Shown: positions 1 to 5,214, counted from the first letter of the stretch. The stretch: DNA of 5,214 nucleotides from a virus (IMGVR_UViG_3300045988_031142:1-5214); one strand, 5' to 3'. Translations and numbers: made by a program. The notes: generated from the letters alone by a model not told the origin.

Positions 1-176
1 CTGATAAGTCTTCTGCTGCATCCCGCTATGGTGCTGATAAGTCTTCTGCTGCATCCCGCTATGGTTCTGATAAGTCTTTTGATGCTAAAAAGCGTTATGG
101 CAATGGTGGAATGTTTGGTTATTTTTCTGGTAATCTTGCTGATGCATTGACTGAAATTATAGGAGTTTTTAAGTGA
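1..176 (+). CDS. C-terminal part of the VP2 (minor capsid / DNA pilot) gene. It is the continuation of the CDS that begins at 4382 and runs off the window end. Codon phase: first full codon at 3; stop TGA at 174-176.
   Basis: Positions 1-55 are identical to 5160-5214. Reading on from 5214 into position 56 keeps the frame exactly (…SRYGADKSSAASRYGSDKSFDAKKRYGNGGMFGYFSGNLADALTEIIGVFK*). The same 33-nt/11-aa SRYGADKSSAA repeat unit is present. Confidence 0.8.
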   Translation, partial: DKSSAASRYGADKSSAASRYGSDKSFDAKKRYGNGGMFGYFSGNLADALTEIIGVFK

Positions 177-256
177 TGTATAGTCTTGTTCTTTGTTTGG
201 CTATGTCTGTTGTAGCTGCTGTTTTTTATCTTGTGATTAAAAATCTAATTAGATAA
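176..256 (+). CDS. Small hydrophobic ORF, 26 aa: MYSLVLCLAMSVVAAVFYLVIKNLIR. Predicted single transmembrane helix with a basic C-terminal tail. Hypothetical membrane peptide, candidate lysis or accessory protein.
   Basis: The ATG at 176 overlaps the VP2 stop (aagTGATGta). AGGAG at 161-165 lies 10 nt upstream. 18 of 26 codons end in T, matching the strong third-position T preference of the confirmed genes. Residues 4-21 form an uninterrupted hydrophobic stretch followed by K-N-L-I-R. Too short to appear in the supplied ORF track. Confidence 0.4.
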   Translation: MYSLVLCLAMSVVAAVFYLVIKNLIR

Positions 257-267
257 ATTTCTTTTAT

Positions 268-317
268 AAAGGAAGCGAAGCGAGTCGCGCCCCTGCGCCA
301 AGCTCCGCTTCTTTTTT
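268..317 (+). terminator. Rho-independent terminator downstream of the VP2 / small-ORF module.
   Basis: GC-rich imperfect hairpin: gaagcg 272-277 pairs with cgcttc 306-311; inner pairs agc 279-281 with gct 302-304, and gcgc 287-290 with gcgc 295-298 around loop ccct. It is immediately followed by TTTTTT at 312-317. The A-run at 268-270 upstream can extend the stem. Confidence 0.6.
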
Positions 318-337
318 GCACTCCTTGCCAAAATGGT

Positions 338-356
338 ATGCAGTTTCAGACTGCAT
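338..356. other. Short perfect hairpin: 7-bp stem, 5-nt loop.
   Basis: atgcagt (338-344) / ttcag loop / actgcat (350-356) are exact reverse complements. Confidence 0.5.
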
Positions 357-386
357 AAAATCTCGGCTGCCGTATCGCATGCCGAA

Positions 387-423
387 CTCGTGCCCATTAC
401 CTTCTTGATGTAATGGGCACGAG
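387..423. promoter_or_regulatory. Perfect 14-bp inverted repeat with a 9-nt loop in the intergenic region. Candidate origin of replication / Rep nick site, or complementary-strand origin or packaging signal.
   Basis: ctcgtgcccattac (387-400), loop cttcttgat (401-409), gtaatgggcacgag (410-423), exact reverse complements. The loop contains CTTGAT, which resembles the phiX174 gene-A nick-site core (…ACTTG^ATATTAAT…, recalled from memory). Confidence 0.45.
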
Positions 424-511
424 TGACACCAAGACACGCAAACTTTCGTTCATATTCTTAAATAGCTACCTAAATTATTTAATAAATATACGAATATACG
501 CTAAATTTATA

Positions 512-540
512 TTGACATAAAATAAAAAATATTCTATGAT
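512..540 (+). promoter_or_regulatory. Sigma70-type promoter for the VP4 (rep) transcription unit.
   Basis: TTGACA at 512-517, 17-nt AT-rich spacer, TATGAT at 535-540. It sits in a ~150-nt AT-rich tract (440-590) containing a tandem 8-mer aatatacg x2 (485-500). It lies ~70 nt upstream of the VP4 start. Confidence 0.55.
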
Positions 541-609
541 ATAAATAAAGTTATAAAAGTACTTAAAAATTAAGAGGATATCGCATCCCCTTATTGAGGT
601 GTTTGCTTT

Positions 610-2186: not shown

Positions 2187-2670
2187 TACTCAGTATACCC
2201 CGCATAATCGCATTGCCGCCAATGCTGGCTCACCCGTCAAGGTTCTTTACGGCGGTAAGTATGATGCTAACGGCCGTGTTGTGCTTGAGAAGAAAGGTGA
2301 AGAGAATCTATATGACTATATCCAGTCTTTTCGCGACTCGGTTGATCTCAACGTTATCCTCGCCCGCTTTACCAACGGCGATGTGGAAGCCCTTAATAAG
2401 GCTCAGGGCTTTTATGCAGACGTGACCGATTTTCCGAAGAATATGGCCGATGCTCTTAACCGTATCAATCAGGCCGAAGAGATGTTCAAGGCTCTTCCGC
2501 TCGAGACCCGGCAGAAGTTCGATTGTTCGTTTGAACAGTTTCTTGCTCAGTCTGGTACTGAGGATTGGTTGTCTAAGATGGGCTTTGAGACCTTTTCGCC
2601 GGTAGAGTCCGAGACCCCACCTGCGCCGGTTTTGCCTGATGCTGTAAAGGAGATCAAGAATGAATCGTAA
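2179..2670 (+). CDS. VP3 internal scaffolding protein (gokushovirus VP3 family).
   Basis: 163 aa starting MFDTQYTPHNRIAAN, with GAGGAG at 2161-2166 upstream. The region …LYDYIQSFRDSVDLNVILARF… resembles the conserved core of gokushovirus VP3. The ORF track starts the frame at ATG 2116, but that ATG has no Shine-Dalgarno sequence and the extra N-terminal codons do not follow the genome's T3 codon bias. Overlaps VP1 by 11 nt. Confidence 0.75.
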   Translation: MFDTQYTPHNRIAANAGSPVKVLYGGKYDANGRVVLEKKGEENLYDYIQSFRDSVDLNVILARFTNGDVEALNKAQGFYADVTDFPKNMADALNRINQAEEMFKALPLETRQKFDCSFEQFLAQSGTEDWLSKMGFETFSPVESETPPAPVLPDAVKEIKNES

Positions 2671-4327
2671 TGTTGAATCGCATTTTGCGCTGAATCCGAC
2701 TCGTATTGATATGTCCCGTTCGACGTTTGATCGTTCGGCCTCTGTCAAGACCTCTTTTAATGTCGGTGATATCGTCCCTTTTTTCCTCGAAGAGGTGCTT
2801 CCCGGCGATACGTTCAATGTACGTACTTCCAAAGTTGTGCGTATGCAGACCCTTCTAACGCCGATGATGGACAATCTCTACCTTGATTCGTACTTTTTCT
2901 TTGTTCCGAACCGTTTGGTTTGGAATCACTGGAAGGAGTTTAACGGTGAAAACACTGAAAGCGCGTGGATTCCTACGACGGAGTATTCTGTACCTCAGAT
3001 TACGTCGCCTTCCGCTGGTTGGTCTGTTGGTACTCTTGCCGATTATTTTGGCCTGCCTACAGGTGTCGGCGGTCTGAGTGTGTCCGCTTTGCCGTTCCGC
3101 GCTTATGCACTCGTTATGAACGAGTGGTTTCGCGATCAGAACTTGCAAGATCCGCTTGTTGTGCCGGTTGATGATGCTACGGTCGTTGGCGTCAATACCG
3201 GAAATTTCGTGACCGATTGTGCGAAAGGCGGTCTTCCTTATATCGCTGCCAAGTATCATGATTATTTTACGTCCTGCCTCCCCAGCCCGCAGAAAGGTCC
3301 TGATGTAACTCTTTCTGTTGCTTCTCAGGGTGATTTGCCGGTATACGCTGGTTCTCAGTCTATTTCGTCTGATTTTAATCAGACTTCGATGCGTATGACT
3401 GGTATTAATGGCTTAGGTGCTCAAGCTTCTAATATTATTCTTTCTGGCACTGGTAACGAGCGTGGTGTTGTTGCGTCTAATTTTACTGGTGGTGTTGGTG
3501 ATAGCAATTGGATTTTAGCTCCGTCTAATCTTTGGGCGCGAAATTCTGGCAATGCTATTATTGCTACTATTAACCAACTTCGTATGGCCTTTCAGATTCA
3601 GAAACTTTACGAGCGCGACGCGCGCGGCGGTACTCGTTATATCGAGGTTCTCAAGTCTCACTTCGGTGTGACTTCTCCTGATGCTCGTTTGCAGCGTCCC
3701 GAGTATCTCGGTGGTAACCGTGTTCCGATTAATGTGAATCAGGTAATCCAGCAGTCCGGCACTGGCGCCGGTGCTGATACTCCGCAGGGCACTGTTGTTG
3801 GTATGTCTCAGACTACGGATTCCAACCACGATTTTATGAAGTCGTTTACTGAGCATGGCTATATTATTGGTGTTATGGTCGCTCGTTATGATCATACCTA
3901 TCAGCAGGGTATTGAGCGTCATTGGTCTCGTAAGACGCGCTTTGATTACTATTGGCCGGTCTTCGCCAATATTGGCGAGCAGGCTGTGCTTAATAAGGAG
4001 ATTTTTGCGCAGGGTACCGCAAAGGATAATGAGGTTTTTGGCTATCAGGAAGCATGGTCTGATTACCGCTATAAGCCTAATCGCGTTACCGGTGAGATGC
4101 GTTCGGCCTATGAACAGTCTCTTGATGTCTGGCATTTGGCGGATGACTATGCGAGTCTTCCGTCACTGTCTGATAGTTGGATTCGTGAAGATAAGAATAC
4201 CGTTGACCGTGTTCTTGCAGTTAAGTCTTCTGTTTCTGACCAGCTTTTTGCGGATATCTATGTTTCCAATCGCGCCACGCGCCCGATGCCTATGTATTCT
4301 GTGCCCGGCCTTATTGACCATCACTAA
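2660..4327 (+). CDS. VP1 major capsid protein (Microviridae F / gokushovirus VP1 jelly-roll capsid protein).
   Basis: 555 aa. The N-terminus MNRNVESHFALNPTRIDMSRSTFDRS…FNVGDIVPFF.EEVLPGDTF is the characteristic gokushovirus VP1 start. AAGGAG at 2647-2652 lies 7 nt upstream. There is a long Ser/Gly/Asn-rich insertion (~nt 3300-3540), as in the gokushovirus threefold 'mushroom' loop. Confidence 0.92.
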   Translation: MNRNVESHFALNPTRIDMSRSTFDRSASVKTSFNVGDIVPFFLEEVLPGDTFNVRTSKVVRMQTLLTPMMDNLYLDSYFFFVPNRLVWNHWKEFNGENTESAWIPTTEYSVPQITSPSAGWSVGTLADYFGLPTGVGGLSVSALPFRAYALVMNEWFRDQNLQDPLVVPVDDATVVGVNTGNFVTDCAKGGLPYIAAKYHDYFTSCLPSPQKGPDVTLSVASQGDLPVYAGSQSISSDFNQTSMRMTGINGLGAQASNIILSGTGNERGVVASNFTGGVGDSNWILAPSNLWARNSGNAIIATINQLRMAFQIQKLYERDARGGTRYIEVLKSHFGVTSPDARLQRPEYLGGNRVPINVNQVIQQSGTGAGADTPQGTVVGMSQTTDSNHDFMKSFTEHGYIIGVMVARYDHTYQQGIERHWSRKTRFDYYWPVFANIGEQAVLNKEIFAQGTAKDNEVFGYQEAWSDYRYKPNRVTGEMRSAYEQSLDVWHLADDYASLPSLSDSWIREDKNTVDRVLAVKSSVSDQLFADIYVSNRATRPMPMYSVPGLIDHH

Positions 4328-4340
4328 ATATCATGTTATA

Positions 4341-4367
4341 GTGGGGGCTGTTGCCCCCACTTTTTTT
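4341..4367 (+). terminator. Intrinsic terminator / attenuator between VP1 and VP2.
   Basis: gtgggggc (4341-4348), loop tgtt, gcccccac (4353-4360): a perfect 8-bp GC stem. It is followed by TTTTTTT at 4361-4367, and then the VP2 ribosome-binding site AAGGAG at 4370-4375. Confidence 0.7.
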
Positions 4368-4381
4368 GAAAGGAGATTTAT

Positions 4382-5214
4382 ATGTCTGATTTTTCTGAAG
4401 CTTTAAACACTGGTGCCAATCAGATTGCTCATATGCAAGGCGTTGCACAGGCAAATAATGCATGGTCTGCCGGACAAGCTCAAATTCAGCGTGAATGGCA
4501 GGAGCAACAGAATGCTAAGGCTATGGCTTTTAACCAGAATGAGGCTGCTAAAAATCGTAACTGGCAGGAGATGCTTTCTAATACTGCTCATCAGCGTGAG
4601 GTGCGTGACCTTATGGCTGCTGGTCTTAATCCTGTGTTATCTGCCATGAATGGAAATGGCGCTTCTGTCGGCTCCGGCGCTACCGCTCAAGGTGTGACCT
4701 CGCAAGGTGCTAAAGGTGATACAGATACTTCCGCTAATGGCGCTATTGCTAATCTGCTTGGTTCTATCCTCTCTGCTCAGACCCAAATAGAGGCCGCTAA
4801 TATCAACGCTAAGACACAGGAAGCCGTTGCAGATAAGTATACTGCCATGGAGAAGATTGTTGCTGAGACTGCCGCTGCTGCTTCGCGTTATGGTGCTGAT
4901 ACTTCTTCCGCCGCTTCTCGCTATGGTGCTGATACCTCTGCCGCCGCTTCTCGCTATGGTGCTGATAAGTCTGCTTCTGCTTCTCGTTATCATTCTGATC
5001 GGAGTTATGAAGCTTCTCGTTATGGAAGTGATCGCGCTGCTATGGCATCTATGTTTGGTTCTTCTCAGATGGCTTCTGCATCTCGTTATGGTGCGGAACA
5101 GTCTCGTCTTGCTTCTCAGTATGCTTCTGACAAGGCTTATGCTGCATCCCGCTATGGTGCTGATAAGTCTTCTGCTGCATCCCGCTATGGTGCTGATAAG
5201 TCTTCTGCTGCATC
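4382..5214 (+). CDS. VP2 minor capsid / DNA pilot protein, 3'-truncated by the window edge. It continues at window position 56 (or equivalently 1) through to the stop at 174-176. Full length ~317 aa.
   Basis: ATG at 4382 is 6 nt after AAGGAG. The frame stays open to the window end (277 codons); the supplied ORF track lists only ORFs with an in-window stop, so it misses this one. N-terminus MSDFSEALNTGANQIAHMQGVAQANNAWSAGQAQIQREWQEQQNAKAMAFNQNEAAKNRNWQEMLSNTAHQREVRDLMAAGLNPVL: the Gln/Asn/Ala-rich helical region and the …LMAAGLNP… motif are typical of gokushovirus VP2. The position after VP1 is as expected. Confidence 0.85.
   Translation, partial: MSDFSEALNTGANQIAHMQGVAQANNAWSAGQAQIQREWQEQQNAKAMAFNQNEAAKNRNWQEMLSNTAHQREVRDLMAAGLNPVLSAMNGNGASVGSGATAQGVTSQGAKGDTDTSANGAIANLLGSILSAQTQIEAANINAKTQEAVADKYTAMEKIVAETAAAASRYGADTSSAASRYGADTSAAASRYGADKSASASRYHSDRSYEASRYGSDRAAMASMFGSSQMASASRYGAEQSRLASQYASDKAYAASRYGADKSSAASRYGADKSSAA
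4880..5214 (+). repeat. In-frame tandem array of a 33-bp (11-aa) unit, consensus A-S-R-Y-G-A-D-K/T-S-S-A. Ten units, continuing into window positions 1-98.
   Basis: Units read from the translation: SRYGADTSSAA, SRYGADTSAAA, SRYGADKSASA, SRYHSDRSYEA, SRYGSDRAAM…, SRYGAEQSRLA, SQYASDKAYAA, SRYGADKSSAA, SRYGADKSSAA, SRYGSDKSFDA. The last copies are identical at the nucleotide level (gctgataagtcttctgctgcatcccgctatggt at 5159-5191, again from 5192, and at 33-65). Confidence 0.9.

What the first reader, a model, noticed from the sequence alone, without database searches (positions are those of the whole stretch)
4880..5214. VP2 pilot protein carries ten 11-residue (hendecad) tandem repeats, several perfectly identical at DNA level
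The SRYGADxSSAA repeats (33 bp) make up roughly a third of VP2. An 11-residue periodicity is what one sees in right-handed / hendecad coiled coils. The phiX174 H pilot protein forms an alpha-helical barrel DNA-translocation tube with 7- and 11-residue repeats (established structural work, recalled from memory). This array may be the gokushovirus analogue of that tube-forming segment, with copy number setting tube length. Perfectly identical adjacent copies imply recent expansion by slippage or recombination, and a locus prone to length polymorphism and assembly collapse.
Basis: partly seen in the sequence, partly recalled or inferred. Interest (0 to 1): 0.7.

Follow-up and report, generated by a model that had tools for sequence, protein, structure and literature searches.

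The report
Variable 11-residue repeat helix in VP2
The DNA-delivery ("pilot") protein of this small gut phage contains a real run of eleven 11-amino-acid repeats that is predicted to form one very long helix and whose copy number changes between near-identical relatives, so it probably acts as an adjustable-length rod or tube; the exact copy number in this genome is uncertain because the assembly breaks inside the repeat.

Summary
The repeat is real. A 33-bp in-frame tandem array starts exactly at 4880 and encodes A-S-R-Y-G-A-D-x-S-x-x units. Two corrections apply.

1. The window is a circular gokushovirus contig whose first 55 nt duplicate its last 55 nt, and that junction lies inside the array. 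After de-duplication VP2 is 317 aa, with 11 units (aa 167-287) plus a degenerate twelfth.
2. Only one pair of units (9 and 10) is identical at DNA level. The other "identical copies" are the terminal redundancy. The true number of identical units is therefore at least 2 and unresolved.

The array is conserved, not an artefact. It appears in more than 100 independent assemblies. Unit counts range from 5 to 11, and this window has the most. Proteins with identical flanks differ by whole units.

Three lines of evidence indicate a helix:
- AlphaFold2 with a diverse alignment gives one continuous helix over residues 117-262, with pLDDT 85-95 for residues 130-250.
- Residue covariation peaks at i+3 and i+4.
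- dN/dS is about 0.1-0.16.

The array sits where cultured gokushovirus VP2s carry a Gln/Asn/Arg-rich helix. It aligns only weakly (not significantly), but in register, with the phiX174 H hendecads.

A length-adjustable coiled-coil tube or stalk is the best reading. Tube formation itself is untested.

The parts
4382..5214 (+). VP2 (DNA pilot protein) CDS, 5' part: aa 1-277 plus 2 nt. It continues at window 56 once the duplicated 55 nt are removed.
   Evidence: ORF and translation. PHROG pilot-protein families, best phrog_5158 at E 2e-106. It lies downstream of VP1 (Phage_F) in a genome with Chlamy_scaf, Phage_ORF5 and Rep.
56..176 (+). VP2 CDS, 3' part: the rest of unit 11's first codon onward, the degenerate unit, the Gly-rich hydrophobic tail and the TGA stop at 174-176.
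   Evidence: In-frame only if 55 nt (or 22 nt) of terminal overlap are removed. The tail AKKRYGNGGMFGY.SGNLADAL.EI.GVFK is shared by P0001-P0003.
1..55 (.). Terminal redundancy: an exact copy of 5160-5214 (a k=55-type circular-contig overlap), lying entirely inside the repeat array.
   Evidence: suffix equals prefix at 55 nt, and also at 22 nt because the period is 33. Relatives' contigs have overlaps of 30 or 127 nt located elsewhere.
4880..5209 (+). Hendecad array units 1-10 (aa 167-276), each 33 nt, consensus A-S-R-Y-G-A-D-x-S-x-x.
5144..5209 (+). Units 9 and 10 (ASRYGADKSSA twice), the only 33/33 identical pair. Unit 10 is also represented by window 18-50.
   Evidence: Pairwise identity matrix.
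51..83 (+). Unit 11 (ASRYGSDKSFD), 30/33 identical to unit 10.
84..116 (+). Degenerate twelfth unit (AKKRYGNGGMF), out of register by one residue. It starts the C-terminal tail.
   Evidence: conserved in P0001-P0003 and P0099.
4730..4879 (+). Pre-array helix (aa 117-166), including the diverged hendecads TQIEAANINAK / TQEAVADKYTA / MEKIVAETAAA. It is continuous with the array helix. This is the stretch that aligns weakly with phiX174 H hendecads 1-3.
   Evidence: AF2 helix 117-262; register display; hmmsearch and hhalign alignments.
4463..4594 (+). N-terminal conserved domain with an aromatic residue every 11 (W28, W39, F50, W61), rich in Gln, Asn and Arg. It is followed by the family signature SNTAHQRE...AGLNP.
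   Evidence: Invariant columns in A1 and A2; composition.
4340..4361 (+). GC-rich hairpin plus T-run between the VP1 stop and the VP2 start (terminator-like). A possible dosage control for VP2.
   Evidence: a consensus scan only.

Best explanation
The array is a genuine, selected, in-frame 33-bp tandem repeat. It encodes 11-residue (hendecad) units in the C-terminal half of the gokushovirus DNA pilot protein VP2.

The units extend a long uninterrupted alpha-helix that begins at about residue 117. With 3.67 residues per turn, each unit presents two faces: one of small residues (Ala1, Gly5, Ser9, Ser2, Ala6) and one of large or charged residues (Arg3, Asp7, Tyr4, Lys8).

By position in the protein, and by analogy with phiX174 H, this helix is the part that oligomerises into the coiled-coil tube or stalk used to carry the ssDNA across the host envelope. 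This step is inferred. Each unit would add about 16.5 A.

Units are gained and lost at both edges of the array, by replication slippage or unequal recombination. The result is a tape-measure-like series of lengths (5 to 11 units) among otherwise near-identical phages, of which this genome is the longest seen.

Shown: the repeat, its conservation, purifying selection on it, copy-number change, and the helix prediction. Inferred: oligomeric tube formation, and that length matters functionally.
For: - Identity of the gene.
- Repeat statistics.
- Homologue lengths cluster in 11-aa steps (283/294/305/316 and 295/306/317).
- Inner units (ASRYHSDRSYE, ASRYGSDRAAM, ASMFGSSQMAS) are positionally orthologous across relatives, while the edge units vary in number.
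- 117 protein pairs have N-terminal parts at least 97% identical (many 100%) and tails at least 93% identical, yet differ in unit count.
- Among 149 representatives of clusters at 50% identity or less, lag 11 or 22 is the strongest self-similarity in 105. Related units such as ASKYSSDSARA, ATRYSADRHAA and AQMYGADRSAA occur in distant clusters.
- Identical amino-acid units are encoded by different codons. dN/dS for the array core is 0.10-0.16.
- AF2 with 83 diverse sequences gives helix 117-262, with pLDDT 85-95 over residues 130-250.
- The volume spectrum peaks at 3.67.
- Residue-class covariation peaks at separations 4 and 3, then 7 and 11. It survives two controls. Arg3 and Asp7 co-occur.
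- The only PDB sequence hits of the family profile are hendecad coiled coils: V-ATPase subunit E and the phiX174 H tube, the latter in hendecad register.
- Cultured gokushovirus VP2s have a Gln/Asn/Arg-rich helix at the same post-linker position.
- G4 H carries a two-heptad insertion, so whole-repeat indels in the tube also occur in Bullavirinae.
Against: - No oligomer model or experiment exists. A monomer AF2 helix does not show a tube.
- Similarity to H is statistically insignificant.
- The array almost lacks the Gln and Asn that line the H lumen.
- The N-terminal domain (aa 25-79) looks more H-like in composition and also has an 11-residue aromatic spacing, so it could be the lumen-forming part instead.
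- Units 9-11 have low pLDDT (40-47), though probably because few alignment rows are that long.
- Cryo-ET of another microvirus (Ebor) did not see a periplasm-spanning tube (PMC11980548), so tube formation is not established outside phiX174.
Confidence: 0.55

Rival explanations
1. The array is a helical spacer or stalk but not the DNA conduit. It forms a low-order coiled coil, or a single long helix, that merely separates the conserved N-terminal domain (the real H-like, Gln/Asn/Arg-rich channel or DNA-contacting part) from the Gly-rich hydrophobic C-terminal tail. Alternatively it packs inside the capsid against DNA through Arg, Lys and Tyr.
For: - VP2 25-79 has Gln 16% and Asn 15%, like the H tube (Gln 19%, Asn 7%), whereas the array has Gln 2% and Asn 0%.
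- W28, W39, F50 and W61 sit at 11-residue spacing and are invariant.
- The array carries a net charge of +5, with one Tyr per unit.
- Its length is tolerant, at 5-11 units.
Against: - The weak but in-register match to H hendecads falls on the pre-array and array helix, not on the N-terminal domain.
- In EC6098, Chp2 and phiMH2K the Gln/Asn/Arg-rich long helix is C-terminal to the Gly-rich linker, at the array's position.
Confidence: 0.25
2. The array is an intrinsically disordered, low-complexity Ser/Ala/Gly/Tyr linker. Its length drifts neutrally through slippage and it has no defined structure.
For: - Composition is Ser 25%, Ala 24%, Gly 7%.
- The first AF2 run, with a shallow alignment, gave pLDDT 39-59.
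- Copy number is highly variable.
Against: - AF2 with a diverse alignment gives pLDDT 85-95 for a continuous helix.
- Covariation peaks at i+3 and i+4.
- Unit positions 1-5 and 7 are nearly invariant, with synonymous codon variation.
- dN/dS is 0.10-0.16.
- The motif is conserved across clusters at 50% identity or less.
Confidence: 0.07
3. The array is an apolipoprotein / alpha-synuclein / LEA-type amphipathic 11-mer (3-11 helix) that lies flat on, or inserts into, host membranes during entry.
For: An 11-residue tandem periodicity is the hallmark of that class (own knowledge). Pilot proteins must engage membranes.
Against: - There is no hydrophobic face. The non-charged face is Ala, Gly and Ser.
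- Mean hydropathy is -0.88, and the hydropathy spectrum is dominated by 5.5 rather than 3.67.
Confidence: 0.06
4. The array, or its unusual length, is an assembly artefact.
For: - The contig ends lie inside the array, with a 55-nt overlap.
- At 11 units it is the longest of 121 close homologues.
Against: - The same array architecture occurs in more than 100 independent assemblies from ENA, JGI and Logan, including complete contigs that break elsewhere.
- Units 1-8 and 11 are all distinct at DNA level, so they cannot be produced by looping.
- Only the number of identical ASRYGADKSSA units is in doubt, and collapse would make it an underestimate.
Confidence: 0.05

Closest known systems
phiX174 protein H coiled-coil DNA-translocating tube (PDB 4JPP/4JPN; hendecads 151-183 QKELTKMQLDN/QKEIAEMQNET/QKEIAGIQSAT followed by 11 heptads; PMC7354561)
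   Same: - Same functional class (Microviridae DNA pilot protein).
- A long uninterrupted helix of similar size: 121 residues in H, 121 in the array and 146 or more in the predicted VP2 helix.
- Sequence-repeated hendecads.
- A weak alignment that keeps hendecad register: VP2 Q135/Q146/E157/S168-R169 against H Q151/Q162/Q173/S184-R185.
- Whole-repeat indels also occur in H (a 14-aa insertion in G4).
   Different: - H has only 3 hendecads and then heptads. VP2 here has at least 14 consecutive hendecads and no heptad section.
- The H lumen is lined by Gln, Asn and Arg, whereas the array is Ser/Ala/Arg/Tyr/Asp.
- H has an N-terminal hydrophobic segment, whereas this VP2's only hydrophobic segment is C-terminal.
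- Homology is not statistically demonstrable.
- No copy-number series of this kind is reported for H.
Tape measure proteins of tailed phages with variable numbers of 11-amino-acid repeats marked by conserved Trp/Phe (PMC3271669)
   Same: - An 11-residue tandem unit with one conserved aromatic at a fixed position (Tyr4 here; W/F every 11 in the N-terminal domain).
- Copy number varies between relatives by duplication and loss of whole units.
- Orthologous units are more alike than paralogous ones.
- A long helical protein involved in DNA delivery whose length is thought to set a physical length.
   Different: - Microviruses have no tail, and no tail tube or chaperones read the 'tape'.
- There is no sequence relationship.
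- VP2 is about 300 aa, against 600-2000 aa for tape measure proteins.
VP2 of cultured gokushoviruses (EC6098, Chp2, phiMH2K)
   Same: - Shared N-terminal signature (W/F-Q-E-x-M-S-N-T-A-H/Y-Q-R ... A-G-L-N-P).
- A Gly/Ser-rich linker followed by a long helix.
- Gene order VP1-VP2.
   Different: They have no lag-11 tandem array. They carry a non-repetitive Gln/Asn/Arg-rich helix instead, are shorter (186-259 aa), and have an N-terminal Gly-rich hydrophobic segment.
Peripheral-stalk subunit E of A/V-type ATPases (right-handed hendecad coiled coil; 4DT0, 2DM9)
   Same: It is the best, though marginal, PDB sequence hit of the VP2 family profile over the array region (E 0.34-0.49). It is an Ala- and charge-rich hendecad helix more than 100 residues long.
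   Different: It is an unrelated function, forms a heterodimeric two-helix stalk rather than a tube, and has no tandem DNA repeat.

Membership tests
Microviridae (Gokushovirinae) DNA pilot protein VP2 | Encoded directly downstream of the major capsid gene VP1 in a gokushovirus genome | tested here: met
   VP1 (Phage_F, E 1.5e-169) lies at 2660-4327 and VP2 starts at 4382. Chlamy_scaf, Phage_ORF5 and Rep are present.
Microviridae (Gokushovirinae) DNA pilot protein VP2 | Sequence membership, including the conserved SNTAHQRE...AGLNP core | tested here: met
   PHROG pilot-protein families match, with the best at E 2e-106. There are 16651 library hits, 292 of them at E<=1e-30. Invariant columns W61, Q62, S66, T68, A69, H70, R72, E73, D76, A80-P84.
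Microviridae (Gokushovirinae) DNA pilot protein VP2 | N-terminal transmembrane-like segment (stated as typical of VP2/H in PMC3091885 and PMC3394797) | tested here: not met
   The maximum 19-residue Kyte-Doolittle mean in the first 40 residues is 0.07. The most hydrophobic segment is C-terminal, at 298-316 (0.96). The phiX174 H N-terminus scores 1.4. Many relatives do have an N-terminal Gly/Ala-rich extension.
Microviridae (Gokushovirinae) DNA pilot protein VP2 | Virion component ejected with the DNA | not testable with these tools
   Requires virions and a host.
phiX174 H-type decameric coiled-coil DNA tube | Long uninterrupted alpha-helix of about 120 residues or more | tested here: met
   AF2 predicts helix 117-262, with pLDDT 85-95 over residues 130-250. 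This is a prediction only.
phiX174 H-type decameric coiled-coil DNA tube | 7- and/or 11-residue periodicity | tested here: met
   Lag-11 identity is 69/110 and the 11/3 harmonic is strongest. There is no heptad section.
phiX174 H-type decameric coiled-coil DNA tube | Detectable sequence homology to the H coiled-coil domain | tested here: inconclusive
   hmmsearch of the family profile gives 4jpn at E 0.36 and 4jpp at E 0.71. hhalign gives P 0.014 and 0.03, with probability 1.6-3%. The same region and register appear each time.
phiX174 H-type decameric coiled-coil DNA tube | Lumen lined mainly by Gln, Asn and Arg side chains | tested here: not met
   The array has Gln 2%, Asn 0% and Arg 10%, against Gln 19% and Asn 7% for H 151-271. 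Which residues would face a lumen is unknown.
phiX174 H-type decameric coiled-coil DNA tube | Parallel decamer with a lumen of about 22-25 A | not testable with these tools
   Only monomer prediction was available.
Tape-measure-type 11-residue repeat proteins | Tandem 11-aa units with a conserved aromatic marker, in variable number among relatives | tested here: met
   Tyr or Phe at position 4 in 11 of 11 units. Relatives have 5-11 units. Compare PMC3271669.
Tape-measure-type 11-residue repeat proteins | Part of a tail-assembly module of a tailed phage | tested here: not met
   The genome is a 5.16-kb tail-less microvirus. This is an analogy, not membership.
Apolipoprotein/synuclein/LEA amphipathic 11-mers | A hydrophobic face giving a strong hydrophobic moment at 11/3 | tested here: not met
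   The non-polar face is Ala, Gly and Ser. The hydropathy spectrum is dominated by 5.5, and mean hydropathy is -0.88.

The most novel reading that the evidence does not exclude
Gut gokushoviruses carry a built-in tape measure. The VP2 hendecad array would form the wall of the DNA-delivery tube. Slippage-driven gain and loss of 16.5-A units would then tune tube length (about 80 A between 6 and 11 units) to the envelope thickness of different hosts. Pilot-protein repeat number would thus be a rapidly evolving host-range determinant in tail-less phages.
Probability: 0.25. Interest if true: 0.7.

Novelty: new variant of a known kind. Interest (0 to 1): 0.5.

Why it matters
How microviruses other than phiX174 move DNA across the envelope is unresolved. 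A periplasm-spanning tube was not seen for Ebor (PMC11980548).

A pilot protein whose helical segment comes in a natural series of 5 to 11 identical-length modules, on otherwise identical backgrounds, is a ready-made experiment. Rod or tube length, oligomer state and infectivity can all be compared across natural alleles.

It also matters practically. The repeat breaks or collapses short-read assemblies, creates false or ambiguous direct terminal repeats, and causes frameshifted or truncated VP2 calls in databases. Examples are P0123 and the 278-aa truncated product obtained by joining this contig directly.

I found no paper in the searchable library that describes this array. The literature notes only that VP2 and H share coiled-coil regions.

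Tried and rejected
- **Pfam scan of VP2:** no family.
- **phmmer of VP2 against PDB sequences:** only a chance hit.
- **hhalign with the shallow alignment A1 against H:** nothing.
- **First AF2 run with 37 close homologues:** helical but low confidence (mean pLDDT 53), so not used as evidence.
- **Foldseek of the good model:** 0 hits against PDB and nothing significant against BFVD, as expected for a single long helix.
- **Rfam:** no hit in the window.
- **Alternative reading frames through the array:** they stay open on both strands. This is a trivial consequence of repetition; one relative, P0123, is simply a frameshifted reading. I rejected this as evidence of overlapping genes.
- **L001 (10.6-kb ENA scaffold carrying P0001's VP2 next to host-like genes):** only VP2 and the downstream non-coding region match the window. 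I treated it as a chimeric or unresolved scaffold, not as prophage evidence.
- **Literature searches:** searches for a description of the repeat found none.
- **Membrane-binding amphipathic 11-mer:** considered and rejected for lack of a hydrophobic face.

Full report
**What the window is.** The 5214-nt window is a complete circular gokushovirus genome. It encodes VP4/Rep (610-1575), an ORF5 protein (1687-1935), the VP3 scaffold (Chlamy_scaf), VP1 (Phage_F, 2660-4327) and, downstream of VP1, VP2 starting at 4382. VP2 matches PHROG families annotated "pilot protein for DNA ejection", with the best family at E 2e-106. The closest GenBank record is a pig-faeces microvirus at 87% nucleotide identity. 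Complete metagenomic relatives are 86-91% identical.

**The contig junction lies inside the finding.** The first 55 nt of the window are identical to its last 55 nt.
- Joining the ends directly gives a stop codon after 278 aa.
- Removing the 55-nt redundancy gives an in-frame VP2 of 317 aa (4382-5214 plus 56-176).
- Removing only 22 nt is also in frame and adds one more unit (328 aa).

Relatives' circular contigs have overlaps of 30 or 127 nt that fall elsewhere in the genome. So a break inside the repeat is specific to this assembly.

The exact period-33 stretch is 85 nt, and the duplicated 55-mer lies entirely within it. For an arbitrary break point that has a chance of about 31/5159 = 0.6%. 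All 55-mers of the stretch are unique only if there are at most two identical units. A longer identical run would collapse to exactly the two-copy path seen here. I therefore read the copy number of the ASRYGADKSSA unit as "at least two, unresolved". This step is an inference from de Bruijn graph logic.

**The observation.** TRF reports period-33 arrays at 4880-4990, 5120-5214 and 1-85. Unit 1 starts exactly at 4880.
- After de-duplication there are 11 units (aa 167-287) plus a degenerate twelfth.
- Lag-11 identity is 69/110, against 16.3 +/- 3.5 in shuffles.
- Positions 1-5 and 7 are nearly invariant: A 11/11, S 11/11, R 9/11, Y 10/11 plus one F, G 8/11, D 8/11.
- Only units 9 and 10 are 33/33 identical. 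Units 10/11 share 30/33 and units 1/2 share 29/33.

"Several perfectly identical" partly reflects the same bases appearing at both ends of the window.

**The array is conserved, selected and variable in number.** The 120 best homologues have lengths clustering at 283/294/305/316 and 295/306/317.
- In register, the inner units ASRYHSDRSYE, ASRYGSDRAAM and ASMFGSSQMAS are orthologous across genomes. The ASRYGADTSAA-type units at the N-edge and the ASRYGADKSSA-type units at the C-edge vary in number.
- Unit counts among 121 close proteins are 5 (6 proteins), 6 (46), 7 (29), 8 (31), 9 (2), 10 (2) and 11 (1, this window).
- 117 pairs have N-terminal 166 residues at least 97% identical (often 100%) and tails at least 93% identical, yet differ in unit number.
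- Identical amino-acid units are often encoded by different codons.
- dN/dS for the orthologous array core is 0.10-0.16, against 0.035-0.055 for the N-terminal part.
- In a library of clusters at 50% identity or less, 16651 proteins match. Of the best 149 representatives, 105 have lag 11 or 22 as their strongest self-similarity.
- Related units (ASKYSSDSARA x7, ATRYSADRHAA, AQMYGADRSAA, GTRYSADQH..) occur in distant clusters.
- 43 of 150 representatives have at least 3 strict units, with arrays of 3-11 units.

Three different C-terminal tails follow the array in different relatives, so the protein is modular.

**Structure.** A first AF2 run with 37 close homologues gave helices at low confidence. 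With 83 diverse sequences the model has one continuous helix over 117-262, with pLDDT 85-95 across residues 130-250. This covers the pre-array hendecads and units 1-8. Units 9-11 drop to 40-47, probably because few alignment rows are that long.

Independent sequence evidence agrees:
- The strongest harmonic of side-chain volume is 3.67 = 11/3.
- Over 213 distinct unit windows from diverse clusters, residue-class covariation peaks at separations 4 and 3, then 7 and 11. It does so again after excluding the positions used to select units, and after shuffling only within proteins.
- Arg3 and Asp7 are gained and lost together (89+59 against 35+30).

On an 11/3 wheel the unit has a small face (A1, G5, S9, S2, A6) and a large or charged face (R3, D7, Y4, K8).

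**Relation to phiX174 H.** H residues 151-271 form the decameric tube. They comprise three sequence-repeated hendecads (QKELTKMQLDN, QKEIAEMQNET, QKEIAGIQSAT), a transition and eleven heptads, and the lumen is lined mainly by Gln, Asn and Arg (PMC7354561).

The VP2 family profile searched against all PDB sequences gave only four marginal hits. All are hendecad coiled coils: V-ATPase subunit E (E 0.34, 0.49) and the H tube 4jpn/4jpp (E 0.36, 0.71). hhalign of the profile against H, or against a four-member H alignment, picks the same stretch: VP2 133-175 against H 149-191, P 0.014 and 0.03. Hendecad register is preserved (Q135/Q146/E157/S168-R169 against Q151/Q162/Q173/S184-R185). This is suggestive but not significant.

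Positional evidence is better. In EC6098, Chp2 and phiMH2K, the segment after the Gly-rich linker is a non-repetitive Gln/Asn/Arg-rich helix, and the array occupies that slot here.

Against a simple equivalence:
- The array has almost no Gln or Asn.
- The N-terminal domain (aa 25-79) is Gln/Asn-rich, with invariant aromatics every 11 residues (W28, W39, F50, W61).
- This VP2 lacks the N-terminal hydrophobic segment of H and of the cultured VP2s. Its only hydrophobic stretch is C-terminal.

**Mechanism proposed.** The array extends a long helix that oligomerises into the coiled-coil tube or stalk of the pilot protein. Slippage or unequal recombination adds or removes 33-bp units at the array edges, and each unit changes the helix by about 16.5 A (11 x 1.5 A). 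Eleven units correspond to about 180 A, and the whole predicted helix to more than 220 A. That is comparable with the 170-A H tube.

The closest functional analogy outside Microviridae is the tape measure protein. Some tape measure proteins carry variable numbers of 11-residue repeats marked by a conserved aromatic residue (PMC3271669). G4's H protein has a two-heptad insertion relative to phiX174, so whole-repeat length changes in the tube also occur in Bullavirinae. Tube formation, and any functional meaning of length, remain inferences.

**Novelty and verdict.** The literature I could search says only that VP2 and H share coiled-coil regions (PMC3091885, PMC3394797). I found no description of this tandem hendecad array or of its copy-number series, and no cultured gokushovirus has it.

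I rate it a new variant of a known kind of protein. It is of moderate interest and has a clear experimental route. It also carries a practical warning that the repeat compromises short-read assembly and VP2 annotation.

Noticed in passing
window 177-257: A small ORF overlaps the VP2 stop (TGATG). It encodes MYSLVLCLAMSVVAAVFYLVIKNLIR (26 aa), a single hydrophobic helix, and is a candidate membrane or lysis peptide.
   Followed up: no
window 4314-4368: A GC-rich hairpin (4340-4361) followed by a T-run sits between the VP1 stop and the VP2 ribosome-binding site. A promoter-like site (4314-4342, 10/12 with TG) overlaps it. This may set the VP1:VP2 expression ratio.
   Followed up: partly
window 258-609: A non-coding region contains a perfect 15-bp inverted repeat (386-400/410-424), a hairpin plus T-run near 272-312, and an 11/12 sigma-70-like promoter (512-540) upstream of the VP4 GTG start. 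It is a candidate terminator, origin and promoter region.
   Followed up: partly
window 4463-4594 (VP2 aa 28-71): The conserved N-terminal domain also has an 11-residue beat. The invariant aromatics W28, W39, F50 and W61 sit in a Gln/Asn/Arg-rich helix, so hendecad periodicity is not confined to the tandem array.
   Followed up: partly
window 4382-4440 and 116-173 (VP2 termini): This VP2 lacks the N-terminal Gly-rich hydrophobic segment found in phiX174 H, EC6098, Chp2, phiMH2K and many relatives. Its only hydrophobic stretch is at the C-terminus (aa 298-316). Relatives carry three unrelated C-terminal tails after the array.
   Followed up: partly
L005:4564-5577 (phage G4 gene H): G4 H has a 14-residue (two-heptad) insertion in the coiled-coil domain relative to phiX174, alpha3 and WA13.
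   Followed up: no
L001 (ENA scaffold, 8250 nt held), 3684-6008: A VP2 91% identical to the window's sits beside HSP90-, Zip- and LysM/GH18-like genes. Between them is a 2.3-kb stretch that is open on both strands and does not match VP1. This is a chimeric scaffold or an unexplained sequence.
   Followed up: partly
P0123 (237 aa, relative): This database protein switches into the +1 frame of the array, giving a Leu-rich tail. It is an example of frameshift or assembly error caused by the repeat.
   Followed up: no
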